Shown piece by piece: positions 23,768-46,898 of a stretch of DNA of 54,448 nt. Source of the DNA: a virus. Lineage: Duplodnaviria > Caudoviricetes. The notes below the pieces were generated by a model. The model saw nothing but the letters and a program-made list of their open reading frames with translations. It made no database searches and was not told where the DNA came from. A program made the translations under genes and the position numbers. The stretch covers positions 1 to 54,448 of IMG/VR virus record IMGVR_UViG_3300017971_000337; one strand, 5' to 3'. The number at the start of each line of letters is the position of its first letter. Position 1 is the first letter of the stretch.

Positions 23768-24597
23768 ACCACCTCTTCCATCGGAATGTACTCAAAAAAA
23801 TCTAGTCCACTATCTGGAGTACAACAAATTATTCTGTCCTTCCACGGAAGAAACTTCTTAAACATTTCAATCTTTGCATCACACCATTCTTGATTCAAAT
23901 AATTTTTTCTATTGTTCAGCCCTTCATCATTATAAGAATGAACATTCCCATCATTCGCTTCCAGGTATTCCTTTGTTGGAGGCTTCATGTCAAATCCAAA
24001 TAGGTATATTTTGCTAGCATCCATTATGATTGCAAGGTTTAGAGCGGCGAGCCCGGAAAGGCTTCCGCTGTACAGACCTAGATTATAGTCTGTTTGTGGT
24101 TCTCCTTTATTTATTGCAAATTCAAATGTACTAGAACGGAAATCCTTATGCTTCCACCCTGTTCTATACGCACAGAATATCATGCCTCTATAGTTTTTAA
24201 TTTCCGTCTGAGCTTGTTTCCACATCACCTCGTCTATAAAAAGCATCGCGTCAGCATCAGGGCAATCTTTGACGGAATGATTGAGGACGATTGTAAATTC
24301 TTTCTTAAACCTGTTATGGTCGAAGCCCTTTAAACTTCGTCCACTCCCCACTATAAAGACTTTTTTACCGGTCAATAGCCCTGAAACTTTTTCGGCTGTT
24401 TCCAATTCACCCTGTTCCATCAACCTGTTTACAGTTTCCTTGTCAGGAATGAAGTGTCCTTTCTTAATTAACTTATAACACTCCTCCAAGGGGAGTTGTC
24501 TAAACTCTTTACAGGTCTCGAAGGTTACACTCCTATCGTTATAGAAGTGCGTATAGTATTTCCCTGGTCCGTTATATTGTACTTTCCCAAATATCAT
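23764..24597 (-). CDS. Sialyltransferase-fold protein (Maf/DUF115/GT42-like)
   Basis: VFIVGSGRSL, TIVLN and SG.AALNLA...A.KIYLFGFDM motifs, with a later HSY. Confidence 0.7.
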   Translation of the reverse strand: MIFGKVQYNGPGKYYTHFYNDRSVTFETCKEFRQLPLEECYKLIKKGHFIPDKETVNRLMEQGELETAEKVSGLLTGKKVFIVGSGRSLKGFDHNRFKKEFTIVLNHSVKDCPDADAMLFIDEVMWKQAQTEIKNYRGMIFCAYRTGWKHKDFRSSTFEFAINKGEPQTDYNLGLYSGSLSGLAALNLAIIMDASKIYLFGFDMKPPTKEYLEANDGNVHSYNDEGLNNRKNYLNQEWCDAKIEMFKKFLPWKDRIICCTPDSGLDFFEYIPMEEVV

Positions 24598-32972: not shown

Positions 32973-33241
32973 CGTGTTATCAAATCTTCCTATATAACTA
33001 CCTATACATAATATACAATAAATGTAAATGATTAAACAAGAAAAAGTTATCATCTTTAATTTTATGTATAGTATTAAAGTAACTACCGAAATGCACGCGA
33101 CTGAACATTATTCTGTGACGCCTGGAAACAAGATAAGGCTGTCGCCGGGATAAGGGTTTTATATACAAGTATAGATTAGATTCCGTCACATCCGCTTATA
33201 TCCATCGTAATTTATTCCAAAAAGCCGGTATAGACAAAAAA

Positions 33242-33688
33242 TGTACTCAATGTACTCATAATGTACTCATCTAAAAACAGGTAAAATTTGGTAACCGTCA
33301 ATATATAAGGAAACAAATAATTATTTTTGTATAGTTTGAGTACAATGAGTACAATAGTACAGACAAAAATATGGAGAGTTGAAATTTTCCAGATTTCTGG
33401 AGGGCTGAAATTAGCGATATAGTGTACTCATTGTACTCACTACACTATACAAATATTTAGTGTGATAACCGTAACTACTGGACTGTCCAGGGTTTACATT
33501 CCCAACCAGCTGGTTGGACATTGAGTACAACCTGAGTACAATGAGTACAAAATCCTATTCAAAAGTTGACCGTCAAAAATTATTATTTGTTAGGGTGACA
33601 ACCGTAACTACTGGACTGTCCAGGGTTTACAGCCCTAACAAAAAACGGGTGATAGGGCGAAATTTCAGCCCTTTATAGATGTACTCAC
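33242..33688. repeat. Array of about 11 TGTACTCA/TGAGTACA octamers in alternating-orientation clusters
   Basis: Cores at 33243, 33252, 33263 (fwd); 33337, 33346 (rev); 33424, 33433 (fwd); 33522, 33533, 33542 (rev); 33681 (fwd). Confidence 0.9.
33467..33631 (+). repeat. 32-bp exact direct repeat AACCGTAACTACTGGACTGTCCAGGGTTTACA (33467-33498 and 33600-33631)
   Basis: Read directly; each copy contains a CTGGA-CTG-TCCAG inverted repeat. Confidence 0.9.
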
Positions 33689-33758
33689 AACATCACTATT
33701 GACAAAATGACTATCAATAATTACTACTCATTTCCACAAAACTGCTCACTCGTCTAAG

Positions 33759-33819
33759 TACCACTTTTTCGTCGCGAAGCGAAAAAAGTGGTATCAATAT
33801 AATTAGATTATGATAGAGT
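33759..33819 (+). promoter_or_regulatory. Early promoter 1 with an upstream ACTTTTT-N-AAAAAAGT palindrome
   Basis: TACCACTTTTT...AAAAAGTGGTA inverted repeat, then TGnTAGAGT extended -10-like element. Confidence 0.5.
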
Positions 33820-33854
33820 GATATCATAACAAATTTAAGAAAAAGGAGAACAAA

Positions 33855-34157
33855 ATGAACGATTTTAAGAGAGAAAAATTTAATAAACAATTTAAGGAAA
33901 ATGACGAGTTAGTAGCAGTTATTTGGGAAGGCGGAAGACGGCTATTAGTATGCGATAAGGTTACCGGCTACAAAGTAACCGTAAACCGCGACTACGATGA
34001 AATGGAAGAGTACGATAACAATAACTTTTATTTTTTTGGACAGCTTTTATTGATAGCCGTTGAACAGCACCAGAGGCGCGAACATAACCGTAAAGTTAGA
34101 AATTACAGAGAATTAAAGAGACTTATGAAAGTAATTAAAAACGAACTTAATAAGTAG
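33855..34157 (+). CDS. Early hypothetical protein
   Basis: AAGGAG RBS; 100 aa; first gene of the plus-strand block. Confidence 0.75.
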   Translation: MNDFKREKFNKQFKENDELVAVIWEGGRRLLVCDKVTGYKVTVNRDYDEMEEYDNNNFYFFGQLLLIAVEQHQRREHNRKVRNYRELKRLMKVIKNELNK

Positions 34158-34191
34158 TAAAAATTTAATAACAAAAAAGGAGAAATGAACA

Positions 34192-34362
34192 ATGAAAACT
34201 AACAAACAAATTAACAATTTAACCGCTCACGATTTAATAACCATTGAGATGGCACTTGAAAAGTATTTAGACAATACTACCAGCGAGAAATTGAGGGATG
34301 CCATACAGGGTACACTTAACAGAGTAACCGACATAGCAAACATAGAGATAGTAAATAAGTAG
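34192..34362 (+). CDS. Early hypothetical protein, 56 aa (MKTNKQINNLTAHDLITIEMALEKY...), not in the ORF track
   Basis: Manual translation; AAGGAG RBS; followed by a terminator. Confidence 0.7.
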   Translation: MKTNKQINNLTAHDLITIEMALEKYLDNTTSEKLRDAIQGTLNRVTDIANIEIVNK

Positions 34363-34388
34363 TAACCATTTTAATTTTTTTGAGGCGA

Positions 34389-34419
34389 ATACCCTGTACC
34401 GAGTACAGGGTATTTTTTT
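34389..34419 (+). terminator. Intrinsic terminator
   Basis: ATACCCTGTAC-CGA-GTACAGGGTAT followed by a T-run. Confidence 0.8.
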
Positions 34420-34670
34420 GCACCGATTTACCTGTAAACCGACGAAAACCACCGAAATTAGCGTATTTTACCTTATATAACCGGATATAAGGGCTTTTAT
34501 TTACGGGGTAACCCTATTATACCTGGTAACCTTTTAAAAGCCCTCAGATCCGCTGTATTCCAGCCTAATTTACTGAAAATTAGCAATTTTAACCAAATAT
34601 GTACCCTATACCCGAAATACCGGAAAATTTCGGTATTTATACCGGCTCCCGGCTGTACCTGTAAAAAAGC

Positions 34671-34729
34671 CACTTTTTTACCGGTCAGGGAAAAAAGTGC
34701 TAGCCGAACTTTCTTTTTATGAGTATATT
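34671..34729 (+). promoter_or_regulatory. Early promoter 2 with an upstream palindrome
   Basis: CACTTTTTT-N11-AAAAAAGTG, then TAGCCG-17 bp-TATATT. Confidence 0.55.
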
Positions 34730-34778
34730 GATTATAGAGTTAAGAAACAAAAACCAAAGAACAAAGGAGACAAGAACC

Positions 34779-35069
34779 ATGACAACAATAACCTACAAAA
34801 AAGCTACTACTAACGATAACAGAAGCTGGAAGAAAATTACGAAGAGGGCACGAATTATAAGATGGGCATACTATAACAAGTATAAAACCATTAAAAAGGG
34901 CGCACAGGAGCTGGGACAGAGCGAAAGCCGTTTTATGGGAATGTTGAACGGACTACAGAGAGCCGGTTACATAACCTTTACAAAGACCGAGAGCGGGAAA
35001 GCTGTAAACCTGCGATTAACCCAAAGCGCATACTACGCACGGTATTATATAACCAGCGGGATAGCGTAA
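34779..35069 (+). CDS. Early protein, possible winged helix-turn-helix
   Basis: TIKKGAQELGQSESRF..ML..LQRAGYI..T pattern; AAGGAG RBS before ATG 34779. Confidence 0.6.
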   Translation: MTTITYKKATTNDNRSWKKITKRARIIRWAYYNKYKTIKKGAQELGQSESRFMGMLNGLQRAGYITFTKTESGKAVNLRLTQSAYYARYYITSGIA

Positions 35070-35101
35070 ATTTTACCCGAACCGCCCAGCCCGAGCTGGG
35101 A

Positions 35102-35145
35102 GGTTTATAAGGGTTTTTTAACCTGTTAAAAAACCCTTATAAACC
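35102..35145. repeat. Perfect 21-bp inverted repeat with a 2-nt spacer
   Basis: GGTTTATAAGGGTTTTTTAAC-CT-GTTAAAAAACCCTTATAAACC. Confidence 0.9.
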
Positions 35146-35204
35146 GTTGACTTAAGGACGGTAAAAATTACTTAACAAAAAAATTTATTTAAAGGAGGCC
35201 ACTG

Positions 35205-35678
35205 ATGGCTGATAACAACAAAAAAGACGTAAAGGTAGACCCCAAAGAGGCAGCGAAAAAAGCGAAGAAGGAAGCACGCAAAAAAGCGAAGAAAGAGGCG
35301 TACGACCTGATTAAGCAGACTATTGAGGGGATTAAGGACCCACAGGTTAAGGAAAAGGCGATTAACGCACTTAAGGTTGTGAGGCCGAGCCTTTACGGTA
35401 TAGTAAGAGCCGGGAGCGCCACAGCTGACTTTATAGCCCACGTTGTAGAGGCTGGAAAGCCGGTGAGCGAAGTGGACATTTTTAACACCTTTAAAATGGG
35501 ACGCAAGGAATGCGCAGGGCACATACGGAAGAGCCTGAGAAAAGCCGAACCCAAAGACAGAACCTGGATAGCCTTTAATAAGGATAAGGGCGAATATACG
35601 GTTATGGGAACAGGCGAAAAGGCACCCGAAGGGTGGACAGGTTATGTACCGGCTGAAGAGGAAATTGACCTGAAGTAA
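35205..35678 (+). CDS. Early basic protein with a Lys/Ala-rich N-terminus, possibly DNA-binding
   Basis: AAGGAGG RBS; KEAAKKAKKEARKKAKKE segment; followed by a terminator. Confidence 0.75.
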   Translation: MADNNKKDVKVDPKEAAKKAKKEARKKAKKEAYDLIKQTIEGIKDPQVKEKAINALKVVRPSLYGIVRAGSATADFIAHVVEAGKPVSEVDIFNTFKMGRKECAGHIRKSLRKAEPKDRTWIAFNKDKGEYTVMGTGEKAPEGWTGYVPAEEEIDLK

Positions 35679-35700
35679 GATACCCTAACATTTATTGCGA

Positions 35701-35732
35701 AATAGCCGGTTATTTTAACCGGCTATTTTTTT
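35701..35732 (+). terminator. Intrinsic terminator
   Basis: AATAGCCGGTTA-TTT-TAACCGGCTATT followed by a T-run. Confidence 0.8.
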
Positions 35733-35972
35733 GCATATTTTTACCTGTACCACCAGCCCTTCCTACCTGTTCCCCTGTTCGGGGATTTTTTACGACCCAT
35801 ATTAGCGGACCTGACGGAACCGAAATTAAAGAGGGTGTAATTACCTATTGCGCCTCCCTGGGAGGCCTCACATCCGCTGTGAGGGACGAGTTTTTAGAGA
35901 GCTGTTCCCAGGCGACCGGCTGAAATAATACCTATTCATATTTTTGTATTTGACTATGAAAATAAAACGGTG

Positions 35973-36031
35973 ACTTTTTTACTATATATAGTAAAAAAGT
36001 TCTTTACAGATTTAAGGCTATATGCGATAAT
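35973..36031 (+). promoter_or_regulatory. Early promoter 3 (sigma70-type) with a perfect 28-bp palindrome just upstream of -35
   Basis: ACTTTTTTACTATATATAGTAAAAAAGT, then TTTACA-17 bp-(TGn)GATAAT. Confidence 0.7.
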
Positions 36032-36095
36032 TGGACTCGGGGACTATACCCGAGGAACTAACGAACAATAAAATTTGAACAACGAAGGAGGAAAA

Positions 36096-36623
36096 ATGAA
36101 CAGTAACGATTTAACCCATACAGGTGACCCAGCTGAGCTGTACGAGATAGCTGAGAATAGCCTGAGGGAATGGATGGCGAAAGCCAAAGAGGAATACCCT
36201 CAGCTTGACCTGTCTTTGCCAACCTTAGACTTTACAATAAAGGGCAAGACAGCCGGACAGGCGAGGCCGAGGGAAAATAGGATAAGGCTTAACTTTATAT
36301 TATTCAAAGAGAACCTTAAAGACTTTGTAGAGAACACTATACCACACGAGCTAGCACACCTTATATCGTATGCACTGTACGGAAGAGCCGGTAACGGACA
36401 TGGCAACTACTGGAAACTTGTTATGATAAATTTGGGACTGGAGCCGGACAGATGCCATAACTACGACGTAACCAATGCCACTGTAAGAACAGTTAAGCGG
36501 ATGTACGAGTATACCTGTAATTGCAGTGAGCCCCATATGTTAACCAAAATAAAACATAACCGGATACAACGAGGCGGAGTATATGTTTGCAGAAGGTGTA
36601 ACGAAAGATTAAAGGAGGCGTAA
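36096..36623 (+). CDS. SprT-like zinc metalloprotease
   Basis: AG.A, TIPHELAH, HG..WK and C-terminal Y.C.C...C..C motifs; AAGGAGG RBS. Confidence 0.9.
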   Translation: MNSNDLTHTGDPAELYEIAENSLREWMAKAKEEYPQLDLSLPTLDFTIKGKTAGQARPRENRIRLNFILFKENLKDFVENTIPHELAHLISYALYGRAGNGHGNYWKLVMINLGLEPDRCHNYDVTNATVRTVKRMYEYTCNCSEPHMLTKIKHNRIQRGGVYVCRRCNERLKEA

Positions 36624-36624
36624 A

Positions 36625-36804
36625 ATGGAGAATAAGAAACTATTAGTTACGGCTATTAACAGGCAAAACTGGACAGCTGTCGCGATACTTAACAGACAGC
36701 CGTCCTGGGACGAGAGGCAAGAACTTACGAAGTTAGTCTTTGAGCTGTTCTGCTTAAAATACGGACAGGAGCCTGACAGTTACAAATATTATGTAGAAGC
36801 TTAA
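36625..36804 (+). CDS. Hypothetical protein, 59 aa (MENKKLLVTAINRQ...), not in the ORF track
   Basis: Manual translation; AAGGAGG RBS. Confidence 0.65.
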   Translation: MENKKLLVTAINRQNWTAVAILNRQPSWDERQELTKLVFELFCLKYGQEPDSYKYYVEA

Positions 36805-36811
36805 TAGCCCG

Positions 36812-36844
36812 ATATACCCTGTATACTGTATACAGGGTATATTT
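36812..36844 (+). terminator. Hairpin related to the 34389 terminator
   Basis: ATATACCCTGTATAC-T-GTATACAGGGTATAT. Confidence 0.55.
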
Positions 36845-36877
36845 AGAGGCACGATTTCAAAAAGGAGAAAATGAACA

Positions 36878-37153
36878 ATGAAAAAAGAACAACGAAAACA
36901 GCCTCGTGACATGGACGGGGATTATATTTACGGACTAGACCCGGACGATGTACAACCTGACCCGATGGCTGGACTATACAATTATGTAAACCGGAGGGGA
37001 GTGAGACACCTTGTAGAAATAGGACAACCGAGAGCCCTCTGCGGGAGTTTTATAGGCAAGAACAACCACGAGGCTATTATAAAGCCAACCGAGTGGGAAT
37101 ACTGTGAAGCCTGTACGATTAAGATGGAGGTGAGGGCGGATGGAAACTGTTAG
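36878..37153 (+). CDS. Hypothetical protein, possible Zn-binding (H...LCG...C..C)
   Basis: AAGGAG RBS; Cys/His pattern. Confidence 0.65.
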   Translation: MKKEQRKQPRDMDGDYIYGLDPDDVQPDPMAGLYNYVNRRGVRHLVEIGQPRALCGSFIGKNNHEAIIKPTEWEYCEACTIKMEVRADGNC

Positions 37154-37610
37154 AATAGAAACCTTGGAGTTCGCCGGTAACGAATACCCGAAATACCACT
37201 ACAAGACAAAGGAGTTTGGACAGGCGACCTATATACTCGGTCGCTGTGCAGACGAAGGTATCCGGGCGGATTTCTTTAATGAAGGAGTAGGATTGTACGC
37301 GAAAACAAAAATAGATTATTTTACTGACATCGTTGTGGAAAGCCTGAAGTACATAGACAAGAAGGCTGAAGAGCCCAAAGGGAATTCGGTTAAGTACAAG
37401 ATGGACAAGGCAATAGCCGGTTACATGCAGTTAGAATATATCCGGCGGAATGTTGGACACCAATGGGTGATGTACACGACGGAAAGTAAGATAGAACAAA
37501 TAATTTTGAATATATTTTTAAAGAAAATATATAGACCTTTTCGTTACAGGGTATTCCGTACTCTTAAGGAGATGGTCGAACATCTTGAAGAAAAAGGAGT
37601 AGTGATATGA
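37140..37610 (+). CDS. Hypothetical protein
   Basis: GGAGG RBS; overlaps its neighbours in an operon. Confidence 0.7.
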   Translation: METVRIETLEFAGNEYPKYHYKTKEFGQATYILGRCADEGIRADFFNEGVGLYAKTKIDYFTDIVVESLKYIDKKAEEPKGNSVKYKMDKAIAGYMQLEYIRRNVGHQWVMYTTESKIEQIILNIFLKKIYRPFRYRVFRTLKEMVEHLEEKGVVI

Positions 37611-37864
37611 CAGAACAATTACAGCCGGAGTATGAGGCGGAAGACAATTCCTTATGCCCGTTTATAAAGACGACTTTAATCGTCTACGGTCCATTACAGG
37701 AATCTAGTCCGCTTCAAACACAAAAAATTCCAATCGTTCCAGTCGCACACGAACAGCATTTATTGACTTGTAAAGAAGTGAAGTGCAAATCGTGGAACAG
37801 GTTAACGAAGGAATGTAAATTAATCGAAGGGAGGAAAATAACTGAAGTCACTCCAGTTATGTAA
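37607..37864 (+). CDS. Hypothetical Cys-containing protein
   Basis: CPF...C....C..W......C pattern; ATGA overlap. Confidence 0.65.
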   Translation: MTEQLQPEYEAEDNSLCPFIKTTLIVYGPLQESSPLQTQKIPIVPVAHEQHLLTCKEVKCKSWNRLTKECKLIEGRKITEVTPVM

Positions 37865-37873
37865 AAAGGAACC

Positions 37874-38212
37874 ATGGGAACAGAAGCGATTGATGAGTAC
37901 ATAAACAACAAAGGAAGAATAACAGCAAACGACTTAATGGATTTTTTTGGATGTGAAAGATTAATCAATAAGAAATGGGCGAAGGTATTCAAAGAAAAAG
38001 GAGTACCGAGCCAGGGAAAGAAAAGAGAAATAAGGTTTGACGGAATAAAAGAAATGAACGAACTACTGAGCAAAGGAATTACGATTAAGCAAATAGCAGA
38101 GACTATAATTCTTTTGGAGGTAGAAAATTTTGAAAATATTGGAAGAAGAAACCATATCCGTAAACGGAAAGGAATGGTGGTTCGTTCATCAATTCGCAAA
38201 AATAACAGGTAG
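37874..38212 (+). CDS. Hypothetical protein
   Basis: AAGGA RBS; operon position. Confidence 0.55.
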   Translation: MGTEAIDEYINNKGRITANDLMDFFGCERLINKKWAKVFKEKGVPSQGKKREIRFDGIKEMNELLSKGITIKQIAETIILLEVENFENIGRRNHIRKRKGMVVRSSIRKNNR

Positions 38213-38438
38213 AAAGGAGCAAGCGATAAGGGTTTTGATATCCAAAGGAAACTTGATAAGGAAACTGAAAACCTTAGACTTTGGAGGAAAGCCCTTAATC
38301 GCTGCGGAAGAATTGTTTGAATTCCCGTTCGTTATGTCGGGTAGACAACCGGACGGGATGATTTGTTACGAGCAGTATGTTTTGGAAAACGGACAATTAA
38401 AAATCAGGGAGAAATGTGTGAATAGACAATGTCAATAA
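38130..38438 (+). CDS. Possible HTH DNA-binding protein (excisionase/MerR-like)
   Basis: V.QFAK.TGR....IR.LI..G pattern; GGAGG RBS before a TTG start. Confidence 0.55.
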   Translation: MKILEEETISVNGKEWWFVHQFAKITGRKEQAIRVLISKGNLIRKLKTLDFGGKPLIAAEELFEFPFVMSGRQPDGMICYEQYVLENGQLKIREKCVNRQCQ

Positions 38439-40036
38439 ACCAACTGCAGGTACAAGAATTCATGAGTTTCTTTACCGGCTCCCAGCATAACTTCGGCGAA
38501 TACATTTATGGTTCAAAGAAGGGAAAAGGGAATAAGTTGGAAGGACAAGCACGGTCCGTCACAAATAAGTTAATAACCATAGAGGAATACAAGAATCATT
38601 TGGAAGGCAAGAAAGGACTCGGTATCATACCGATAATGGAAAACAGCAAATGCAAATTCGCGGTGATAGATGTAGATATATATGACAGGGATTTAACAAT
38701 GTATCTAGATGCTATACAGCGAGGCGATTTTCCACTCGTACCCTTCCGTAGTAAGAGCGGTGGTTTACATATCTATATGTTCCTTGACAAGGAAGTATCG
38801 GCAAAAAAGGTCGTTGAAATTATGCGACGGTTTTCTTTTTTATTATCCATAGAAGCACTGGTACGGGATGAAAAAAATTCATCGGTAGAAGTGTTCCCTA
38901 AGCAAACGAAACTTAAGAAAGGCGATGTTGGGAACTGGATTAATCTACCTTATTATAACAGTGGGGAGTCGACACAGAAAGCGTTGAAGGACGGAAAAGA
39001 ATTATCGCTCAATGAAGCCCTTCTCTATATTAAAGAGAAACAAACATCCTTAACAGAAGCACAAGAGTTTTTAAAGGACATTGCTTATAGTGATGCACCA
39101 CCCTGTCTACAAACACTATATTTCTTGAATCCGTTTGACAAGGGAGCAGGAAGAAATAATTTCCTCTTTTCTTTTGGGGTATACCTTAAGAAAAAGGACG
39201 AGGACTTTTTCGAACAAAATCTACAGGAGGTCAACCAGAGCATAAGATATTCTTTGAAAGAGGGCGAGGTCGAGAAAACAATTTTGTCTTCGCTCAGAAA
39301 GAAGGATTATATTTACAGGTGCAAGGAATCACCTTGCGTAGATTTTTGTCACAAGAAAGAGTGCAAGAAGAGGGAGTACGGTATTGGTAAGAACGAAGGA
39401 TATTTTTCTTCTGTAGAAGTTGGACAGCTGTACCAGTACAAAACTCAACAACCATACTATGAATGGGAGGTTAGACTACAAGGACAAGACGACTTTAAGA
39501 TGTTACGGTTTAAGACAGAAGATGAGATAATAAAACAGGATGCTTTTTTACGGTTATGTATGCGGGAGCTCCATGAGATACCTTCCAAGCTCAAACAGAT
39601 GGAATGGTTCAACAAAGTTAATCAGGCTCTGAAGGAAATTAAAACAATAGATGTCAGTGCCGAGGACGATACATCACCGCTCATGCTGTTAAAGAATTTT
39701 GTCTTGGAATTTTTAACCCAGAGGGCGATGGCAGAAACTAAAGACCAGATACTAGCGAAGCGAGTGTTCTATGATGAAGTTTCAGGCGTCTACCTGTTCA
39801 GGGTGAAGGACTTAACCGAATATCTTTATGTACAGAAACAGTTCAAGTATTTCTCTCCGGGCGAATTACACGGAATTCTTCGGGAATTTCACTGTATTTA
39901 CAAGAAAATAAATACTGAATCGCGGAGACAGATTCGCGTCGCAGGTTTCCACAGAAAGGATTTGAATTTTGAGGATACAACCGGAGTAGGAAAATTTGAG
40001 CCAGACTTTTCAGAATATTCAAAGGAGGATTTCTAG
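38429..40036 (+). CDS. Archaeo-eukaryotic primase (AEP/prim-pol) with a PriCT-like domain
   Basis: HL.G..G.G, IDVD, RSKSGG.H.Y, EVFPKQ, GNWINLPY, PPCL and GRNN motifs; Cys cluster. Confidence 0.88.
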   Translation: MSINQLQVQEFMSFFTGSQHNFGEYIYGSKKGKGNKLEGQARSVTNKLITIEEYKNHLEGKKGLGIIPIMENSKCKFAVIDVDIYDRDLTMYLDAIQRGDFPLVPFRSKSGGLHIYMFLDKEVSAKKVVEIMRRFSFLLSIEALVRDEKNSSVEVFPKQTKLKKGDVGNWINLPYYNSGESTQKALKDGKELSLNEALLYIKEKQTSLTEAQEFLKDIAYSDAPPCLQTLYFLNPFDKGAGRNNFLFSFGVYLKKKDEDFFEQNLQEVNQSIRYSLKEGEVEKTILSSLRKKDYIYRCKESPCVDFCHKKECKKREYGIGKNEGYFSSVEVGQLYQYKTQQPYYEWEVRLQGQDDFKMLRFKTEDEIIKQDAFLRLCMRELHEIPSKLKQMEWFNKVNQALKEIKTIDVSAEDDTSPLMLLKNFVLEFLTQRAMAETKDQILAKRVFYDEVSGVYLFRVKDLTEYLYVQKQFKYFSPGELHGILREFHCIYKKINTESRRQIRVAGFHRKDLNFEDTTGVGKFEPDFSEYSKEDF

Positions 40037-42029: not shown

Positions 42030-42947
42030 ATGGACGCATACAGTTTATTGAAAGACGAAAACTATATGATAGGTATTCCCACCAGGGCACGAACACATCT
42101 TATAGACAAGAAAGTTGGTGTATGGAAATACTTTTTAAGAGAACCTTTCAACAAGAAAGAATTCCCAGTCGTTGCATTCGTAAGGGAATCGGAAAGGGAA
42201 ATGTACAGGGAAGCATTGAAGGGAACTTATGTAGAAATAGTCGTTGTAAGTGATGAAATAAATATAGCGACTAAAAGGAACTTGATTTACAAGCACGCTA
42301 GAACTTGTGGAAAGGAACACGTCTTTATAGTTAATGATGACGTTGATTTTTATTTTCGCAAGGAAGAACTGAGTTCTAAGTACACAAACAAGTACGATGA
42401 ACTGATGGAAAAGAAAGTCGTGGAAAAGATATTCTTGGAATGCATCTACCTGTGCAATAGTAAATTCCCAATCAGTGGATTGCCGTTGAAACAAGGTAGT
42501 CAGGACGCGAAGTATTGGTTCGAAAAGAACAGGCAGATTATACATCTACAATGCTATCATGTTCCGACATTGGAAAAGGAAGAAATAGAACATGACGGAA
42601 TGGGTGTATGTGGTATGTCAGACAGATGGGTTCAACTTTCTTTACATGAAAGAGGGTATAGAACAGTATCTAACTTTCGTTACGCAGTGGGCGACATGGG
42701 AACAGGTAGACCGGGAGGCTGTACAGAGTTTAGGACGCCTGAACTTGTCACAGAAGCAGCTCGTGCGGTTAAGGAAAGATTCCCAGAAGTTACTCAACTT
42801 AAAAGAAAGGCGAATGGTGTTTGGGACACTCCCAGGATTGATTGCACTATAAGGTTAAAGAAGTATCTGGAGGAAGGGGAACAGCCGTTTATTCCTTCCG
42901 TACCTTTATTAGACAAGTGGAAAAGGGAGAAGAGCTACAATGGATAA
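42030..42947 (+). CDS. DNA-base glycosyltransferase-like protein (TAGT/GREB1-like GT-A fold)
   Basis: IPT.AR, NDD.DF, D.WVQL.L..RGY and GGC..FRT motifs; context of DNA modification genes. Confidence 0.7.
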   Translation: MDAYSLLKDENYMIGIPTRARTHLIDKKVGVWKYFLREPFNKKEFPVVAFVRESEREMYREALKGTYVEIVVVSDEINIATKRNLIYKHARTCGKEHVFIVNDDVDFYFRKEELSSKYTNKYDELMEKKVVEKIFLECIYLCNSKFPISGLPLKQGSQDAKYWFEKNRQIIHLQCYHVPTLEKEEIEHDGMGVCGMSDRWVQLSLHERGYRTVSNFRYAVGDMGTGRPGGCTEFRTPELVTEAARAVKERFPEVTQLKRKANGVWDTPRIDCTIRLKKYLEEGEQPFIPSVPLLDKWKREKSYNG

Positions 42948-44226
42948 GGAAGTGATATTTATAAATATGCCGAAACCGTTTTTGAAACAGCCCGATGCTC
43001 AGGCTCCGTTAGGTATCCTTTATTTAGCCTCTATTATGGAAAATATTGGGGTTTCAGTACAGGTTAAAAACTACGCTGGATATACAGACGCTGACGCCCT
43101 CACAGATTTACCAAGGGCTAATATGTACGGGATAACGGTTGTCAGTATGGAGATCCCTCGTGCGAACATGTTCGCCCGTCTGATTAAGATAAAGTATCCA
43201 GACGCGAAGGTAATCCTCGGTGGTCCTGGAATATTTTCTTTGGAAGCTTTAGACTGGATTGAAGGCAGTATAGATGGAGTTTGCGCAGGCGAAGGGGAAC
43301 GGATAGTTGGTAAAATATACAAGGATTGTTTGAAAGGGGAAGTGGAGCGGTTCTACCGAGGTGAAAAGGTCGGTAACTTAGACACGATACCTTTCCCAGC
43401 AAGACACTTGATGGAAGGGAAACAGGGTGGAAACATCTTTGCGAATAACAAACAATACATGGACGGGGAGAGCGCTGTCATTACTTCATCTCGTGGTTGC
43501 AATCACAGGTGTTCATTCTGTTCTGCCCCATCGCTTAATCCAAAGATTCGTTTCCGTAGCGAGGACAATGTTGTATCGGAAATAGCACATGTCATGGCTG
43601 AGTACGGCATTAAACAGTTCAGGTTCTCAGATGATTCCTTTACAGCTAGCAAGCGTAGAGTGTTATCGTTATGTGAAAAGCTCGGGCCACTGAATATCGC
43701 GTGGAGAATTTCCTGTAGAGTTAAACCATTGGACGAGGACATGTTAAGAGCGATGAAGGACGCTGGATGTAAGGAGCTGTCATTTGGGATAGAGTCGTTT
43801 GACGATGATGTCCTTAACGGTTTAAACAAGGGTACGACCGGTTTTGAAAACGCTGAGGCTCTGCATCTTGCAGACAAGGTTGGGTTCGATGTCCGTGTTC
43901 TGTTTATGATACGAACACCTTTCCAGACAAGGAATACAGTAGAAAAGAATCAATGGTGGATTAGACGAGTGCCCTTTACTGTCATAGCCTGTACGAGCTA
44001 TGTTCCTATTCCTGGAAGCGATGTATGGAATAACCCAGACAAGTATGGCGTGGAAATACTGAGCCGTGACTTGAACGATTACAACTTTTATATGTTCGGT
44101 CCGGAAGGGAAACACGATTTGAAACCGTTGATAAAACTTGTAGATAGACCTCTAGACGAGTTCATGGCCGAATCTGAGGACTTTAGAAATTGGCTAATAA
44201 ATATTCAAAATGTAAACAGGGGATAA
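42940..44226 (+). CDS. Cobalamin-binding radical SAM enzyme (class B methyltransferase-like)
   Basis: PLGILYLAS, GGP, GEGE, SRGCNHRCSFC, F.DDSF and GIES motifs. Confidence 0.92.
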   Translation: MDKEVIFINMPKPFLKQPDAQAPLGILYLASIMENIGVSVQVKNYAGYTDADALTDLPRANMYGITVVSMEIPRANMFARLIKIKYPDAKVILGGPGIFSLEALDWIEGSIDGVCAGEGERIVGKIYKDCLKGEVERFYRGEKVGNLDTIPFPARHLMEGKQGGNIFANNKQYMDGESAVITSSRGCNHRCSFCSAPSLNPKIRFRSEDNVVSEIAHVMAEYGIKQFRFSDDSFTASKRRVLSLCEKLGPLNIAWRISCRVKPLDEDMLRAMKDAGCKELSFGIESFDDDVLNGLNKGTTGFENAEALHLADKVGFDVRVLFMIRTPFQTRNTVEKNQWWIRRVPFTVIACTSYVPIPGSDVWNNPDKYGVEILSRDLNDYNFYMFGPEGKHDLKPLIKLVDRPLDEFMAESEDFRNWLINIQNVNRG

Positions 44227-44229
44227 CAG

Positions 44230-45081
44230 ATGGAACCAAGAGAGAAAATGCTTCACGCTTTTTTAGAGTCCGCTCTGGAAAGGCACAGGACATACAAAAA
44301 TAAAGAGGCGGGAAAGCCTCTCCCATGGAGTTCATGGGAAATTTACCAAAACTATTTTTTCTGCAATGTCTTTAGACAGTACGATAAATGTTCTAAATGG
44401 ATAATTGAAAAGATAGTTCCATTCAAACGATGGGATTTGCTTATCCTTTACAGGTTTATTTCTACCTGGAATACCTTTATGGAAATAGAAGAGACCTGTA
44501 AACTGGACGATATACAGGGGATTCATGATTTACTGGAAGAGAAGTATCACACAAAGGAAAAGATATTTTCTTCTTGCTTCATTCGCAATCCCCGTATCCC
44601 AGGCGGATGGACACAGACTTGGAGAGTACCCTTCGTTCTAATTGAAGAACTGAAAAGGGACAAGTTTGACCCGAGTGACTTTTCAACATTGAAAGAGCTA
44701 ACAGAGTACCTTAAAATGTACCCTGGCGTAGGAGGGTTTATGGGTTATGAATATGCTTGCGACCTGGAGTACACTGACATGTTCAATCCAATGGATAAGC
44801 ACACTTGGGCTAACAGAGGTCCAGGTGCCAATCGTGGAATGAGCTTAGTCTTTCTTGGACACTCTCGTAAAAAGTTTCCAAAGAAAGCATGGATAGAAGG
44901 GCTAGAAAGGCTGTTCTTTGAAATGCAACAAGCATTTGGAGAAGAATTCCCTGAAGAAGAAATAACTATGAGGGAAGTTGAACACTGGCTTTGTGAGTTT
45001 CAAAAGTTCGTTAAGTACATGAACCTTATGAATACAGGGACAAAGTGCAAGCATAGAAAATATTATGGGAGGGGAGAATGA
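44230..45081 (+). CDS. 5-hmdU DNA kinase-like protein (aGPT-Pplase1/HMUDK helical family)
   Basis: ER......K..G...PWS, FCNVFR..D, G.GGF..YE...DL.Y, GPGA.RG and EVEHWLCEF.K motifs. Confidence 0.8.
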   Translation: MEPREKMLHAFLESALERHRTYKNKEAGKPLPWSSWEIYQNYFFCNVFRQYDKCSKWIIEKIVPFKRWDLLILYRFISTWNTFMEIEETCKLDDIQGIHDLLEEKYHTKEKIFSSCFIRNPRIPGGWTQTWRVPFVLIEELKRDKFDPSDFSTLKELTEYLKMYPGVGGFMGYEYACDLEYTDMFNPMDKHTWANRGPGANRGMSLVFLGHSRKKFPKKAWIEGLERLFFEMQQAFGEEFPEEEITMREVEHWLCEFQKFVKYMNLMNTGTKCKHRKYYGRGE

Positions 45082-45629
45082 AATTTGAGGATTACCTTGT
45101 AAAGTACAATACTCTTAAGAGCATTAAGAGATTCAACATGGAAACAGTCTCAGACCCACAGGATTTGTGTGGTCATGGATATAGTGTAGGAACCCTGTTC
45201 TATCTTCTATGTAAAGAATACAATGTTGAAATTTCTGCTTCGGTTCTATTTTTGGTAATGAACCATGATTTCGCCGAAACTTATACAGGTGATTTAAACA
45301 AACAAATCAAAGACAAGAACAAGCATACGAAAACTGCCTGGGAAATAATTGAAAACAGTTCCCTTCCTGGGCATCTCTTAGGGTATACAGACACTCAGAT
45401 AAGACAATCATTGAACGATTGTCAGTTCTTGATGTTCCAACTTGCGGATGCCTTGGACGCTTTCCTTTATTGTCACAGGGAAGTAGCAAAAGGCAATTCG
45501 TTGTTGATAAATGCAAAGAACTACTATCATCAAAAAGTAGGAAAGCTGTTTTGTGAAGTGGGCAATCCAGCTGAGCAAGTAGAATTGCTAACAAAATTCA
45601 TAAAAGGAGAACTAAAATGTACCTGGTAG
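45078..45629 (+). CDS. HD-domain deoxynucleotide phosphohydrolase (YfbR-like)
   Basis: L..I.RF, H...V, HD.AE.YTGD and AD.LD motifs. Confidence 0.85.
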   Translation: MKFEDYLVKYNTLKSIKRFNMETVSDPQDLCGHGYSVGTLFYLLCKEYNVEISASVLFLVMNHDFAETYTGDLNKQIKDKNKHTKTAWEIIENSSLPGHLLGYTDTQIRQSLNDCQFLMFQLADALDAFLYCHREVAKGNSLLINAKNYYHQKVGKLFCEVGNPAEQVELLTKFIKGELKCTW

Positions 45630-46405
45630 AAGACAATTTTAATGAAGCCTATTTGGCATTGGCTGATACACTTGTTAACCACCCGGACTATCGTACAGTG
45701 AACAGGAAGGGTGAACGAGTGTATGAAATCTTAAATGCCTCTTTCCAAGTATTGGATCCGAGAAATTGCTTTGCAACTTGTCGGGAAATGTCTTTAAAGT
45801 ATTTGGAAGGCGAGCTGTATTTCTATGGGAGCGGGAGCCCGAGGCTCTATGACATAGCACAACATGCACCCTTCTGGGAAAACTGCACAGATGATGGATG
45901 GAGTGTTAATAGTAATTATGGAAAGCTGTTATTGCATGATGTTAACGCAAGGAACTGGACTCAATATGAGTATGTCTTAAGGACCTTGGCGAAGAACCCT
46001 AACAGTAAAAAAGCTGTCGCGGTTATCTATAGGGATTTCCATGCGTATCCAAGTAATGATAACCCTTGCACGATGTACTTACAATTCTTTATCCGTGAAA
46101 ATAGGTTGCATATCTTTGTTAAGATGCGGTCATCAGACATCTGGTTCGGTCTGCCTTATGATGTGCCTTTCTTTACGCTAATCTTATGCAAGCTTCATAA
46201 GGATTTACAGGCTCTTGGACATAAAGACTTGGAGCTTGGTACTTACAACCATCAGTCAGGGAGCCAACATCTATACGAAAGAAACCTTGGAAAGATACAG
46301 GACATGTTGGACGAGGATTTCCGGGAAGAACCGAGTGTTCAAAAAGGGTTATTTGACCGGTTTATTTTACCCTATATCAGCGAAACTATAGACGAGAGGG
46401 AATAA
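45617..46405 (+). CDS. Thymidylate synthase-family pyrimidine hydroxymethylase/methylase
   Basis: NSNYG, D.PC, MRSSD.WFG.PYD and GS.HLYE motifs; Asp where thymidylate synthase has its dUMP-selecting Asn. Confidence 0.88.
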   Translation: MYLVEDNFNEAYLALADTLVNHPDYRTVNRKGERVYEILNASFQVLDPRNCFATCREMSLKYLEGELYFYGSGSPRLYDIAQHAPFWENCTDDGWSVNSNYGKLLLHDVNARNWTQYEYVLRTLAKNPNSKKAVAVIYRDFHAYPSNDNPCTMYLQFFIRENRLHIFVKMRSSDIWFGLPYDVPFFTLILCKLHKDLQALGHKDLELGTYNHQSGSQHLYERNLGKIQDMLDEDFREEPSVQKGLFDRFILPYISETIDERE

Positions 46406-46406
46406 C

Positions 46407-46898
46407 ATGGAAAACTATATTGACTTAGAACTTGTTGACCAATTTTTTGAAAGGGCTCATTATCAAGCATCTCTCGCTGTTTGCATGAAGAAAAAAGTTG
46501 GCGCTGTCATGGTGAACAATATGTCCGGCGAAATAGTTGGAAAGGGCTTCGGCGGAGCGAAAGAACCCTGTAAAGAATGTGTCCGTAAAAAGTTGGACTG
46601 GCAACAGGACGGATGTTGGGCTGTTCACTCTGAGCTCAGGGCTATATTTAATTTCTTTGAGCGAAACGGATTTCACACTTCACTTCCATTTGCGATGATG
46701 TTTGTAACTCATGGTCCCTGCGACCAATGTATTAAATATATGCACTATTTTGGAATACCCATAATAGCATACGACATTGAATACCACAATGACTACTCTA
46801 AATGGGACGGAAAAGTGCGTATATTTCAGAAGGAAGAATTGAAAAAAGAAATAAAGGAGGCAAGAGAAGATGCAAAAACTTACTTACCACCAGTTTAA
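46407..46898 (+). CDS. dCMP deaminase-family protein
   Basis: C.K.KVGA, HSE.RA and PC..C zinc motifs. Confidence 0.88.
   Translation: MENYIDLELVDQFFERAHYQASLAVCMKKKVGAVMVNNMSGEIVGKGFGGAKEPCKECVRKKLDWQQDGCWAVHSELRAIFNFFERNGFHTSLPFAMMFVTHGPCDQCIKYMHYFGIPIIAYDIEYHNDYSKWDGKVRIFQKEELKKEIKEAREDAKTYLPPV

What the first reader, a model, noticed from the sequence alone, without database searches (positions are those of the whole stretch)
33826..37150. Strand-specific elimination of the TC dinucleotide across the early genes
Seen by reading each line: no 5'-TC-3' on the plus strand in 34714-35760 (1,047 nt; two genes plus their spacer) and one (34227) in 33826-34543. There are about 4 in the 528-nt SprT gene and 2 in the 276-nt 36878 gene, returning towards normal after about 37.15 kb. 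Base composition predicts tens per kb. In the TC-free genes Ser is only AGY, and ATC/TTC/GTC/CTC are unused. TC reappears in the promoter-upstream parts of the spacers (34544-34713, from 35761). GA is abundant, so the minus strand is not depleted, which argues against dsDNA restriction. Possible explanations (inference): (a) early mRNAs avoid a UC-specific RNase or RNA-modifying toxin, from the host or from phage shut-off; (b) the non-template strand avoids a TC-specific ssDNA deaminase or DarT-like ADP-ribosyltransferase; (c) the phage hypermodifies pyrimidines in TC context and keeps the genes first read by host RNA polymerase free of the adduct on this strand.
Basis: partly seen in the sequence, partly recalled or inferred. 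Interest (0 to 1): 0.88.

Follow-up and report, generated by a model that had tools for sequence, protein, structure and literature searches.

The report
TC-free early transcripts in a phage
A marine-sediment phage has removed almost every 5'-TC-3' from the sense strand of its first few transcription units, and only there, which points to an unknown single-strand-specific enemy (or self-inflicted DNA mark) that acts at the very start of infection.

Summary
The window is a whole 54,448-bp phage genome. On the + strand, no TC starts between 34713 and 35760. That 1,049-nt gap compares with a longest gap of 318 nt for any other dinucleotide. The first four rightward genes hold 1 TC against 34.9 expected from synonymous resampling (z -7.0). 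The next three hold 10 against 31.0.

The purge also acts at codon junctions, in UTRs and in terminators. It stops in the two promoter-bearing spacers, which have normal density, so it follows transcription units. GA, which is TC on the other strand, is normal.

In 11 distinct relatives the homologue of the 157-aa early protein carries 51-89 TC per kb. The trait is therefore specific to this lineage.

The mechanism is unresolved. My best reading (about 0.35) is that the immediate-early mRNAs escape a UC-specific RNA-attacking activity. The rivals are:
- a TC-specific ssDNA enzyme acting on the non-template strand;
- the phage's own thymidine hypermodification, for which TG/TC contexts have been inferred in other phages (PMC6449724).

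Reduced T and raised C at third codon positions argue against a cytosine deaminase. Chance, dsDNA restriction, tRNA effects, mRNA unfolding and Rho avoidance are rejected. I found no published precedent.

The parts
33826..34418 (+). TC-poor transcription unit 1: genes 33855-34157 and 34192-34362, ending in a terminator hairpin plus U-run
   Evidence: 1 TC in 593 nt against 25.9 expected. The hairpin in 34388-34414 folds at -19.7 kcal/mol, z -5.1.
33855..34157 (+). First early gene, 100 aa, an ORFan with 0 TC
   Evidence: 0 TC against 7.4 expected, with 0 of 5,000 resamples as low. It matches only itself in 5.8 billion clusters and in 1.84 billion representatives. No Pfam or PHROG hit. The AF2 model has pLDDT 50 and is unusable.
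34192..34362 (+). Second early gene, 56 aa, with 1 TC (34227, at a codon junction)
   Evidence: P = 0.022. No family hit.
34419..34543 (+). TC-free stretch downstream of terminator 1
   Evidence: 0 TC in 125 nt against 5.5 expected, P = 0.004. It is unexplained unless there is read-through. It shares a conserved post-terminator module with 35718-35749 (D10).
34544..34712 (+). Spacer with normal TC density, upstream of the unit-2 start
   Evidence: 7 TC in 169 nt against 7.4 expected. It contains a T6/A6 hairpin at 34668-34701.
34713..35735 (+). TC-free units 2 and 3: gene 34779-35069 (96 aa), two hairpins at 35085-35145, gene 35205-35678 (157 aa), and a terminator
   Evidence: 0 TC in 1,023 nt against 44.7 expected, Poisson P about 4e-20. 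The terminator hairpin in 35696-35735 folds at -20.6 kcal/mol, z -5.5.
34779..35069 (+). Early gene of 96 aa with homologues in relatives; its sequence looks like a winged-helix DNA-binding protein (my reading, no family hit)
   Evidence: tblastn gives 39-42% identity to L001 and L003. 0 TC, with 0 of 5,000 resamples as low.
35205..35678 (+). Conserved early gene of 157 aa: a Lys-rich N-terminal helix plus a winged-helix-like C-terminal domain
   Evidence: Homologues at 40-51% identity in 11 distinct relatives. 0 TC here against 21-34 TC in the homologues. AF2 pLDDT 79. Only weak, non-significant winged-helix fold matches.
35761..36038 (+). Spacer with normal TC density that carries the best sigma-70-like promoter
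   Evidence: 10 TC in 278 nt against 12.1 expected. The promoter is TTTACA-17-GATAAT at 36003-36031, matching 10 of 12 positions. The last TC (36037-36038) sits 6-7 nt after the -10 element, at about the expected start site.
36039..37153 (+). TC-poor unit 4: SprT-like gene 36096-36623, gene 36625-36804 and gene 36878-37153
   Evidence: 11 TC in 1,115 nt against 48.7 expected, P about 8e-11. SprT-like PF10263, E = 3e-17.
42030..46898 (+). Thymidine hypermodification cluster (context for rival reading c): TAGT-like glycosyltransferase, B12-type radical SAM, 5-hmdU DNA kinase, HD phosphohydrolase, ThyA-like enzyme and dCMP deaminase
   Evidence: Pfam hits. The radical SAM is closest to AprD4, 6fd2, E = 7e-16. 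Relatives carry SPASM radical SAMs and a second TAGT-like gene instead.

Best explanation
The phage has recoded its immediate-early transcription units so that their RNA contains essentially no 5'-UC-3'. I think this protects these first mRNAs from a UC-specific activity that attacks single-stranded RNA and is already present when the DNA enters. That activity would be an endoribonuclease or an RNA-modifying toxin. It could come from the host, or it could be a host-shutoff enzyme brought or made first by the phage.

The products of the UC-free messages would then neutralise or outlast the activity. These products include two lineage-specific ORFans. That would explain why the fourth unit needs only a partial purge and why later genes need none.

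Shown:
- the purge itself;
- its restriction to one strand;
- its action at the dinucleotide level (codon junctions, UTRs, terminators);
- its fit to promoter and terminator boundaries;
- its absence from relatives.

Inferred:
- that the segments are early transcripts;
- that the target is RNA rather than the non-template DNA strand;
- that an enzyme of this specificity exists.
For: 1. Size. The first four genes hold 1 TC against 34.9 expected (z -7.0) and the next three hold 10 against 31.0 (z -4.5), while GA is 118 against 113.8.

2. Dinucleotide level, not codon or tRNA level. With each gene's own codons permuted, T|C junctions are 1 against 7.0 (P = 0.0018) in the first four genes and 2 against 7.4 (P = 0.007) in the next three. 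The non-coding transcribed parts, including terminators, are also TC-free.

3. Fit to transcription units. Going rightward the density is depleted, normal, depleted, normal, depleted. The spacers 34544-34712 and 35761-36038 have 7 and 10 TC against 7.4 and 12.1 expected. The last TC before unit 4 lies 6-7 nt after the -10 element of the best promoter. That position is inside the open-complex bubble but outside the RNA.

4. Gradient. Going rightward there are three almost clean units, then one about 5-fold depleted, then normal density. This fits a threat that fades as early products accumulate.

5. Cost paid in protein. Ser falls from 6.4% to 2.7% and is AGC in 11 of 11 codons. Conserved Ser, Phe, Ile and Val residues use TC-free codons here but TCN, TTC, ATC and GTC in relatives.

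6. Base attacked. T is lowered and C is raised at third codon positions. This fits an agent that attacks U or T next to C, not one that attacks C.

7. Lineage-specific. The homologue in 11 distinct relatives has TC O/E of 1.15-1.90, and no relative locus has a TC gap above 234 nt. This fits a host-specific or recently acquired agent.

Precedents, recalled and not from any call here: mRNAs without ACA escape MazF; HCV is depleted in UA/UU against RNase L; T4 makes Dmd early against RnlA.
Against: - I know of no UC-specific RNase or RNA-modifying toxin in phage-host conflict, and searches listed none.
- Sequence alone cannot tell RNA from the non-template DNA strand.
- Transcript ends are predicted, not measured. 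No RNA run holds the phage.
- 125 nt beyond terminator 1 are also TC-free, which needs read-through to explain.
- Later genes have normal TC, so an extra assumption is needed: an early countermeasure, or a short-lived agent.
- The phage has its own T-modifying chemistry with a literature-supported TG/TC context (PMC6449724). That gives a rival cause needing no unknown enzyme.
- The evidence is one genome from an uncultured phage with an unknown host.
Confidence: 0.35

Rival explanations
1. Own hypermodification. The phage's 5-hmdU DNA kinase pathway hypermodifies T when C follows it. The sense strand of the units that must be read from the incoming, fully modified parental genome is kept free of the adduct. 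The reason would be either that the adduct on that strand hinders host RNA polymerase, or that it draws a modification-dependent host enzyme when the strand is exposed in the transcription bubble.
For: - The genome carries the full pathway: HMUDK PF18723 (E = 5e-39), a ThyA-like enzyme, dCMP deaminase, HD, a TAGT-like glycosyltransferase and a radical SAM.
- Restriction-resistant sites in M6, ViI and phiW-14 share TG or TC. The authors infer that the kinase prefers T followed by G or C (PMC6449724, abstract and passages read).
- Conversion of 5-hmdU is described as sequence-specific (PMC8989533 and PMC5889632, passages read).
- Phosphorylating hmU templates with 5-HMUDK cut E. coli RNA polymerase output to about 10% of the hmU template level (PMC6457204, passages read).
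- T is lowered at third codon positions, and TG is modestly low at 46 against 63.2, z -3.5.
- The chemistry is lineage-specific: an AprD4-like B12-type radical SAM here, against SPASM radical SAMs plus a second glycosyltransferase in relatives. This could explain why only this phage shows the purge.
- Only pre-replicative genes have to be read from mature modified DNA.
Against: - The purged strand is the non-template strand. The template strand keeps normal TC, seen as GA z +0.8 and CA z -0.9 on the + strand.
[quoted passage not shown] That is a different polymerase.
- TC is present inside the promoter regions, where modified bases matter most for sigma factor binding (PMC4838386, passages read).
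- The replication and modification genes (38.4-48.7 kb) must also be expressed before replication, yet have normal TC.
- Three relatives with a kinase 53-56% identical show no purge.
- The context-controlled test finds no T|G avoidance (17 against 20.6, P = 0.13).
- The modification context in this phage is unknown.
Confidence: 0.25
2. Attack on the non-template DNA strand. A host enzyme specific for single-stranded DNA acts on 5'-TC-3' when the sense strand is exposed in transcription bubbles or R-loops of the heavily transcribed single incoming genome. The enzyme could be a DarT-like thymidine ADP-ribosyltransferase or, less likely, an APOBEC/DddA-like cytosine deaminase. The phage has purged the sites until an early product disarms the enzyme.
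For: - It predicts the same strand, the same fit to transcription units and the same gradient as the RNA reading.
- DarT modifies only ssDNA, at TNTC, on the T directly 5' of C. It does not touch RNA (PMC5179494, passages read). DarTG is described as an anti-phage system in the abstract of PMC11543638 (search listing).
- TC is the classic context of DNA cytosine deaminases. TC depletion is a known footprint of APOBEC3 in papilloma- and polyomaviruses. Transcription raises C-to-T change on the non-transcribed strand in E. coli. All three points are recalled and come from no call here.
Against: - Against a deaminase: C is raised, not lowered, at third positions (0.23 against 0.167), CC O/E is 1.62, and NNC codons are preferred wherever no T precedes.
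- Against canonical DarT: only TNTC would need purging, but every TC context is gone. Four of the 12 residual TC in the transcribed parts are TNTC (read).
- DarT failed on dU-substituted oligonucleotides (PMC5179494), and this phage's T is derived from hmU.
- A TC sits at about -2/-1 of the unit-4 promoter, inside the open-complex bubble.
- During replication the whole genome becomes single-stranded, yet only 3.3 kb is purged.
- One search listed no anti-phage ssDNA cytosine deaminase of this kind (listing only).
Confidence: 0.2
3. Avoidance of Rho-dependent termination. Rho's primary binding sites bind YC dinucleotides in nascent RNA (recalled), so early untranslated or poorly coupled transcripts would shed UC.
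For: The effect is strand-specific and limited to transcripts. Rho is constitutive and acts from time zero. A review of Rho appeared in a search listing (PMC12360218, listing only).
Against: CC, the other YC ligand, is enriched (O/E 1.62, against 1.07 in the rest of the + strand arm), and C content is not lowered (0.179 against 0.164). Rho needs a C-rich tract, not a single site, so a total purge of one dinucleotide is not what this predicts. Relatives do not show it.
Confidence: 0.04
4. Ordinary causes: chance, codon bias or tRNA supply, selection for unstructured mRNA, foreign origin of the segment, or an assembly or sequencing artefact.
For: Early genes show a general shift to C-ending codons, so some codon-usage selection is present.
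Against: - Chance: Poisson P of about 4e-20 and 1.5e-10 for the two clean blocks, and 0 of 5,000 resamples for four genes.
- Codon or tRNA supply: ATT, TTT and GTT are used while ATC, TTC and GTC are not, although the same tRNAs would usually read both (general wobble decoding, from no call). Junctions and non-coding parts are purged too.
- mRNA structure: the folding energy of the four TC-free genes is not weaker than that of resampled controls (z -0.24, +0.51, +0.05, -1.58).
- Foreign origin: two of the genes are syntenic homologues of genes in relatives.
- Artefact: reading frames are intact, and identical pieces occur in runs from other studies.
Confidence: 0.01

Closest known systems
APOBEC3 'footprint': TC depletion in papillomavirus and polyomavirus genomes (recalled, from no call here)
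   Same: A viral genome is depleted in the same dinucleotide, 5'-TC-3'. The depletion is interpreted as escape from a single-strand-specific enzyme and is visible in codon choice.
   Different: In those viruses the depletion is partial and genome-wide or gene-wide. Here it is essentially total, confined to 3.3 kb of four transcription units, and found in a bacteriophage. C is raised elsewhere on the strand, which argues against a cytosine-directed enzyme.
Restriction-site and PAM avoidance in phage genomes (recalled)
   Same: Selection removes a short target sequence from phage DNA, and it is often strongest in what enters or is expressed first.
   Different: Those targets are 4-8 bp and act on double-stranded DNA, so both strands are depleted. 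Here the target is a dinucleotide on one strand only, with GA normal. It follows transcript boundaries.
Site-free mRNAs that escape sequence-specific mRNA interferases, such as ACA-less messages and MazF; also UA/UU depletion against RNase L (recalled)
   Same: This is the proposed logic: an mRNA with no copy of the cleavage motif is immune, so it alone is translated.
   Different: No UC-specific interferase is known to me or appeared. A natural operon-scale purge of a dinucleotide has not, to my knowledge, been described.
Sequence-context-specific thymidine hypermodification (M6, ViI, phiW-14; PMC6449724, PMC8989533, passages read)
   Same: This phage encodes the same kinase family and pathway logic. 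The inferred target context in those phages is T followed by G or C.
   Different: Those papers report no local strand-specific avoidance of the context. Relatives of this phage with the kinase have none either. The context in this phage is unmeasured.
DarT2 ssDNA thymidine ADP-ribosylation at TNTC (PMC5179494, passages read)
   Same: It is single-strand-specific, it modifies the T directly 5' of C, and it belongs to an anti-phage toxin-antitoxin system.
   Different: The known motif is four bases. Here all TC contexts are purged, and TNTC is among the few survivors in unit 4. No phage is reported to have purged DarT sites.

Membership tests
Thymidine-hypermodifying phages (5-hmdU pathway) | 5-hmdU DNA kinase gene | tested here: met
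   PF18723 HMUDK_hel, E = 4.5e-39, at 44230-45081. tblastn finds 92 phage records at under 60% identity, listed rows 27-33%.
Thymidine-hypermodifying phages (5-hmdU pathway) | dUMP hydroxymethylase (ThyA homologue), dCMP deaminase, nucleotide phosphohydrolase and the phage's own DNA polymerase | tested here: met
   PF00303, PF00383, PF12917 and PF00476 hits at 45078-48714. Enzyme activities were not tested.
Thymidine-hypermodifying phages (5-hmdU pathway) | Modified thymidine actually present in virion DNA, and its sequence context | not testable with these tools
   Only Illumina-type contigs are available. This needs LC-MS or native long-read data.
dsDNA restriction-site avoidance | Depletion of the motif and its reverse complement alike | tested here: not met
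   TC is 1 against 34.9 expected, but GA is 118 against 113.8. GA O/E is 0.98.
APOBEC-type cytosine-deaminase footprint | TC depleted with TT or TA gain, and no enrichment of C in other contexts on the same strand | tested here: inconclusive
   TT O/E is 1.77, which fits. However, C at third positions rises from 0.167 to 0.23, CC O/E is 1.62, and AGC is used 11 of 11 times over AGT. This fits selection against T-before-C better than C-to-T decay.
DarT2 target avoidance | Purge limited to the four-base motif TNTC | tested here: not met
   All TC contexts are absent from units 1-3. Four of the 12 residual TC in transcribed parts are TNTC: 36213, 36366, 36680 and 36857 (read).
Site-free mRNA escaping an mRNA interferase | Depletion coextensive with the transcript, from +1 to the terminator | tested here: inconclusive
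   It fits predicted promoters and verified terminator hairpins. The transcript ends are predictions, and 125 nt past terminator 1 are also TC-free.
Site-free mRNA escaping an mRNA interferase | A cognate nuclease with that specificity exists in the host or the phage | not testable with these tools
   The host is unknown. The early proteins have no family hits, and g33855 is an ORFan. Large virion proteins show no RNase, ART or deaminase domain.
Rho (rut) avoidance | Loss of YC and of C-richness in the nascent RNA | tested here: not met
   CC is enriched (O/E 1.62) and C content is 0.179 against 0.164.

The most novel reading that the evidence does not exclude
Some bacteria of marine sediments, or the phage itself as a host-shutoff weapon, possess a nucleic-acid-attacking enzyme of a kind not yet described. 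It would recognise nothing more than 5'-U/T-C-3' on a single strand and would act from the first seconds of infection. This phage would then have answered by completely recoding its immediate-early operons, Ser codons and amino-acid content included. That would be a natural 'site-free message' strategy. The two TC-free ORFan genes at the head of the region (33855-34362) would be the countermeasure, or the weapon together with its inhibitor.
Probability: 0.5. Interest if true: 0.9.

Novelty: new variant of a known kind. Interest (0 to 1): 0.8.

Why it matters
Motif avoidance has repeatedly revealed what a virus is escaping: restriction sites, PAMs, CpG against ZAP, and TC against APOBEC3 (these examples are recalled). 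This footprint is unusually clean. It is a dinucleotide, on one strand, in four transcription units, at close to 100% depletion, in a phage whose relatives lack it.

It implies an agent with dinucleotide specificity acting on single-stranded nucleic acid at the very start of infection. No such agent is known in bacteria.

If the cause is instead the phage's own chemistry, this would be the first genomic evidence of two things. One is that thymidine hypermodification has a TC context. The other is that phages arrange their sequence so that host polymerase can read modified parental DNA.

Either way, it gives a simple and transferable screen for new defence or anti-defence biology: strand-specific runs free of a given k-mer in early regions.

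Tried and rejected
Searches for closer relatives
- blastn of 33000-38500 against 50,697 phage records found no match.
- Single-protein scans of IMG/VR with g35205 and g33855 found no relative.
- Homologues of g35205 were found only by local tblastn in loci fetched with the primase and by an alignment-based metagenome scan. All are at most 51% identical. No close relative was available to date the purge.

Sequencing runs
- No RNA holder was listed.
- Laying contigs of X1-X4 gave no informative variation. X1 and X2 look like one data set, and the only early-region difference is 33916 C>T, which makes no TC.

Early protein function
- The AF2 model of g33855 has pLDDT 50 and was not searched further.
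- The atlas search gave no usable hit.
- The g35205 model gave only non-significant winged-helix matches, best E = 0.15.
- Pfam and PHROGs found nothing for 6 of the 7 early proteins.
- No tRNA and no Rfam family were found in the genome.

Hypotheses tested and dropped
- TG co-depletion, as a 'T before G or C' signature. TG is low against genome-wide usage (z -3.5) but not in the context-controlled permutation (P = 0.13). I do not claim it.
- Unstructured-mRNA selection.
- Rho avoidance.
- tRNA or codon supply.
- Type III CRISPR adaptation or PAM. Type III-A shows no PAM (PMC13575424, passages read), and a PAM would deplete both strands.
- A comparable purge of another k-mer in relatives. None was found in 7 loci of at least 7 kb. 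The one outlier, L017 8515-9033, is a tandem pentapeptide-repeat gene.

Literature
- Searches for a precedent listed none. I saw only listings for those.
- Supplementary tables of PMC6449724 and PMC8989533 were not available. They hold restriction results and kinase contexts and may bear on reading c.

Not done
- A survey of cultured HMUDK phages for TC-free runs.
- A complex prediction for g33855 with g34192, because I make no binding claim.

Full report
What the window is

The 54,448-bp window is the whole contig of its assembly, and it is a tailed-phage genome.
- Genes from 460 to 33,053 run leftward. They include a Mu-type portal, a terminase large subunit, a tape-measure protein, a beta-helix tail protein and a nonulosonic-acid glycosylation cluster.
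- An 800-bp intergenic region full of short repeats follows (33,054-33,854).
- Everything from 33,855 onward runs rightward. First come seven small genes. Then come an AEP primase, a UvrD-type helicase, a thymidine-hypermodification cluster, DNA polymerase A, an SNF2 helicase and a ligase. The hypermodification cluster holds a TAGT-like glycosyltransferase, a B12-type radical SAM, a 5-hmdU DNA kinase, an HD hydrolase, a ThyA-like enzyme and a dCMP deaminase.
- The seven small genes sit where early genes sit in such genomes. They have strong Shine-Dalgarno sites, sigma-70-like promoters and hairpin-plus-U terminators. That they are 'early' is an inference.

The observation

No TC starts between 34,713 and 35,760. 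The four longest TC gaps in the genome (1049, 403, 317 and 314 nt) all lie in 33.8-36.7 kb. No other dinucleotide has a gap above 318 nt anywhere.

On the coding strand, the 51 ORFs outside the region have TC O/E of 0.68-1.29. The seven early genes have 0, 0.16, 0, 0, 0.18, 0.52 and 0.20.

I resampled synonymous codons from genome-wide usage, 5,000 times per gene.
- For four genes the observed count was never reached.
- The P values were 0.022 for the 56-aa gene and 0.009 for the 91-aa gene.
- The 59-aa gene alone is not significant (P = 0.36).

Pooled, the first four genes have 1 TC against 34.9 expected (z -7.0). The next three have 10 against 31.0 (z -4.5). GA is 118 against 113.8.

What level the selection acts on

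It is not codon or tRNA selection.
- Ser is AGC in 11 of 11 codons.
- ATC, TTC, GTC and CTC are absent, while ATT, TTT, GTT and CTT are used.
- When each gene's own codons are permuted among synonymous sites, T|C codon junctions are still too few. The counts are 1 against 7.0 (P = 0.0018) in the first four genes and 2 against 7.4 (P = 0.007) in the next three.
- Untranslated leaders, the 135-nt gap between genes 34779 and 35205, and both terminator hairpins are also TC-free.
- The proteins have paid for this. Ser drops from 6.4% to 2.7%.

Other rival causes also fail.
- The four TC-free mRNAs are not predicted to fold more weakly than resampled controls. Selection for open mRNA is therefore not the cause.
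- TG is low against genome-wide usage (z -3.5), but not when context is controlled (P = 0.13). I do not count TG as co-depleted.
- At third codon positions T falls from 0.316 to 0.21 and C rises from 0.167 to 0.23, and CC is enriched.

Where it starts and stops

Taking 43.7 TC per kb (the + strand from 38,429 to the end) as reference, one search gives this series:

| Segment | Coordinates | TC observed | TC expected |
|---|---|---|---|
| Unit 1 | 33,826-34,418 | 1 | 25.9 |
| After terminator 1 | next 125 nt | 0 | 5.5 |
| Spacer | 34,544-34,712 | 7 | 7.4 |
| Units 2 and 3 | 34,713-35,735 | 0 | 44.7 |
| Spacer | 35,761-36,038 | 10 | 12.1 |
| Unit 4 | 36,039-37,153 | 11 | 48.7 |
| Next segment | next 1,275 nt | 42 | 55.7 |

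The depletion therefore switches off in exactly the two spacers that carry the next promoter, and on again downstream. The best promoter match is TTTACA-17-GATAAT at 36,003-36,031. Its last upstream TC is at 36,037-36,038, about where transcription should start.

This pattern rules out a contiguous-domain cause such as an origin-proximal replication effect or a first-entering DNA segment as such. It ties the purge to the transcribed sense strand.

Relatives

Four IMG/VR contigs and thirteen metagenome loci encode a homologue of the 157-aa early protein at 40-51% identity. Four of the metagenome loci duplicate the IMG/VR contigs.
- In the 11 distinct relatives analysed, that gene has 51-89 TC per kb (O/E 1.15-1.90). 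No locus has a TC gap longer than 234 nt.
- No other di- or trinucleotide shows a comparable run in the 7 loci of at least 7 kb. The one outlier is a tandem-repeat gene.
- At conserved residues the relatives use TCA, TTC, ATC and GTC where this phage uses AGC, TTT, ATA/ATT and GTG/GTT.
- Three relatives with long loci carry the glycosyltransferase, kinase, HD, ThyA-like, deaminase and polymerase genes. They have SPASM radical SAM enzymes and a second TAGT-like gene where this phage has an AprD4-like B12-type radical SAM.
- The first two genes of the region are absent from the relatives. The first is an ORFan in two very large protein collections.

The purge is thus a derived trait of this lineage. 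It could go with a different host, with newly acquired early genes, or with a different modification chemistry. The same genotype turns up in contigs of sediment and seawater runs from other studies, with no informative variation.

Weighing the mechanisms

A single-strand agent is required. I commit to the RNA reading, at about 0.35 confidence: early messages free of UC escape a UC-specific RNase or RNA-modifying toxin present at time zero. Its points in favour are these:
- It fits the boundaries most directly, including a TC that lies inside the open-complex bubble but outside the RNA.
- It fits the gradient across the four units.
- It fits the T-down, C-up shift.
- It fits the lineage specificity.
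- The logic has recalled precedents (ACA-less mRNAs and MazF; UA/UU and RNase L; early Dmd against RnlA).

Its weakness is that no such enzyme is known, and my searches listed none.

The non-template-DNA reading (0.2) predicts the same geometry. Its deaminase form is disfavoured by the rise in C. Its DarT form has a real precedent for 'T before C, ssDNA only' (PMC5179494), but it should spare TC that is not in TNTC.

The own-modification reading (0.25) needs no unknown enzyme and has real support.
- Resistant restriction sites in M6, ViI and phiW-14 implicate T followed by G or C (PMC6449724).
- Conversion of 5-hmdU is said to be sequence-specific (PMC8989533, PMC5889632).
- Kinase treatment of hmU templates depresses E. 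coli transcription (PMC6457204).

Four things count against it.
- It predicts trouble on the template strand or in promoters (PMC4838386, PMC11550810), yet the template strand and the promoters keep their TC.
- The replication genes, which must also be read from parental DNA, are not purged.
- Relatives with the kinase are not purged.
- The modification context in this phage is unknown.

Rho avoidance (0.04) fails because CC is enriched. Chance, codon bias, foreign origin and artefact are excluded by the calls above.

Novelty and verdict

Motif avoidance is a known kind of viral adaptation. I found no precedent in any listing for this combination of features:
- an almost total purge of a dinucleotide;
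- on one strand only;
- bounded by transcription units;
- in a phage.

Noticed in passing
window 33231-33690: Arrays of an 8-nt word in alternating orientation. In 33.2-33.7 kb there are six copies of TGTACTCA and five copies of its complement TGAGTACA, out of 11 and 7 copies genome-wide. A 50-nt direct repeat is also present (33457-33506 and 33590-33639, 90% identical). They lie between the terminase genes and the early genes, and could be iterons of an origin, a pac site or operators.
   Followed up: partly
window 17073-24597 (- strand): A glycosylation cluster sits among the late genes. It holds NeuB (nonulosonic acid synthase, E = 8.5e-61), a cytidylyltransferase fused to a GT29 sialyltransferase-like domain, a GT2, PGA_cap, a radical SAM and a weak MptE-like hit. 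It may decorate virion proteins or host surface with a sialic-acid-like sugar.
   Followed up: partly
window 42940-44226: The radical SAM of the thymidine-hypermodification cluster has a B12-binding-type N-terminal domain. Its closest solved relative is AprD4, annotated as a putative apramycin biosynthetic oxidoreductase (6fd2, E = 7e-16). Relatives carry one or two SPASM radical SAMs and a second TAGT-like gene instead. The final base modification therefore probably differs between these phages.
   Followed up: partly
window 33758-33794, 34668-34701, 35102-35145, 35972-36000: A T6...A6 hairpin or palindrome lies upstream of each putative early promoter (for example CCACTTTTT...AAAAAGTGG). One is a perfect 21-nt-arm palindrome at 35102-35145. 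A conserved module, TATTTTTTTGCA-N-TTTACCTGTA, follows both terminators (34405-34436 and 35718-35749). These may be regulator sites.
   Followed up: partly
window 33855-34157: The first early gene is a true ORFan. It matched only itself in the 5.8-billion-cluster word search and in the 1.84-billion-representative HMMER search.
   Followed up: yes
window 39358-39639: A 371-nt contig in runs X1 and X2 differs at 46 of 282 aligned positions inside the primase gene. A strain about 84% identical appears to co-occur with this phage, but no such variant piece was listed for the early region.
   Followed up: no
L017 8530-8970: A relative carries a tandem 15-nt repeat that encodes a pentapeptide-repeat protein in its early region. 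Such proteins can be DNA mimics (recalled).
   Followed up: no
L001-L016, homologues of window 35205-35678: In the relatives, T|C codon junctions in this gene exceed the simple expectation (summed 106 against about 59 over 11 loci). TC there is, if anything, favoured, which is the opposite of this phage. The expectation is crude and I did not control it further.
   Followed up: partly
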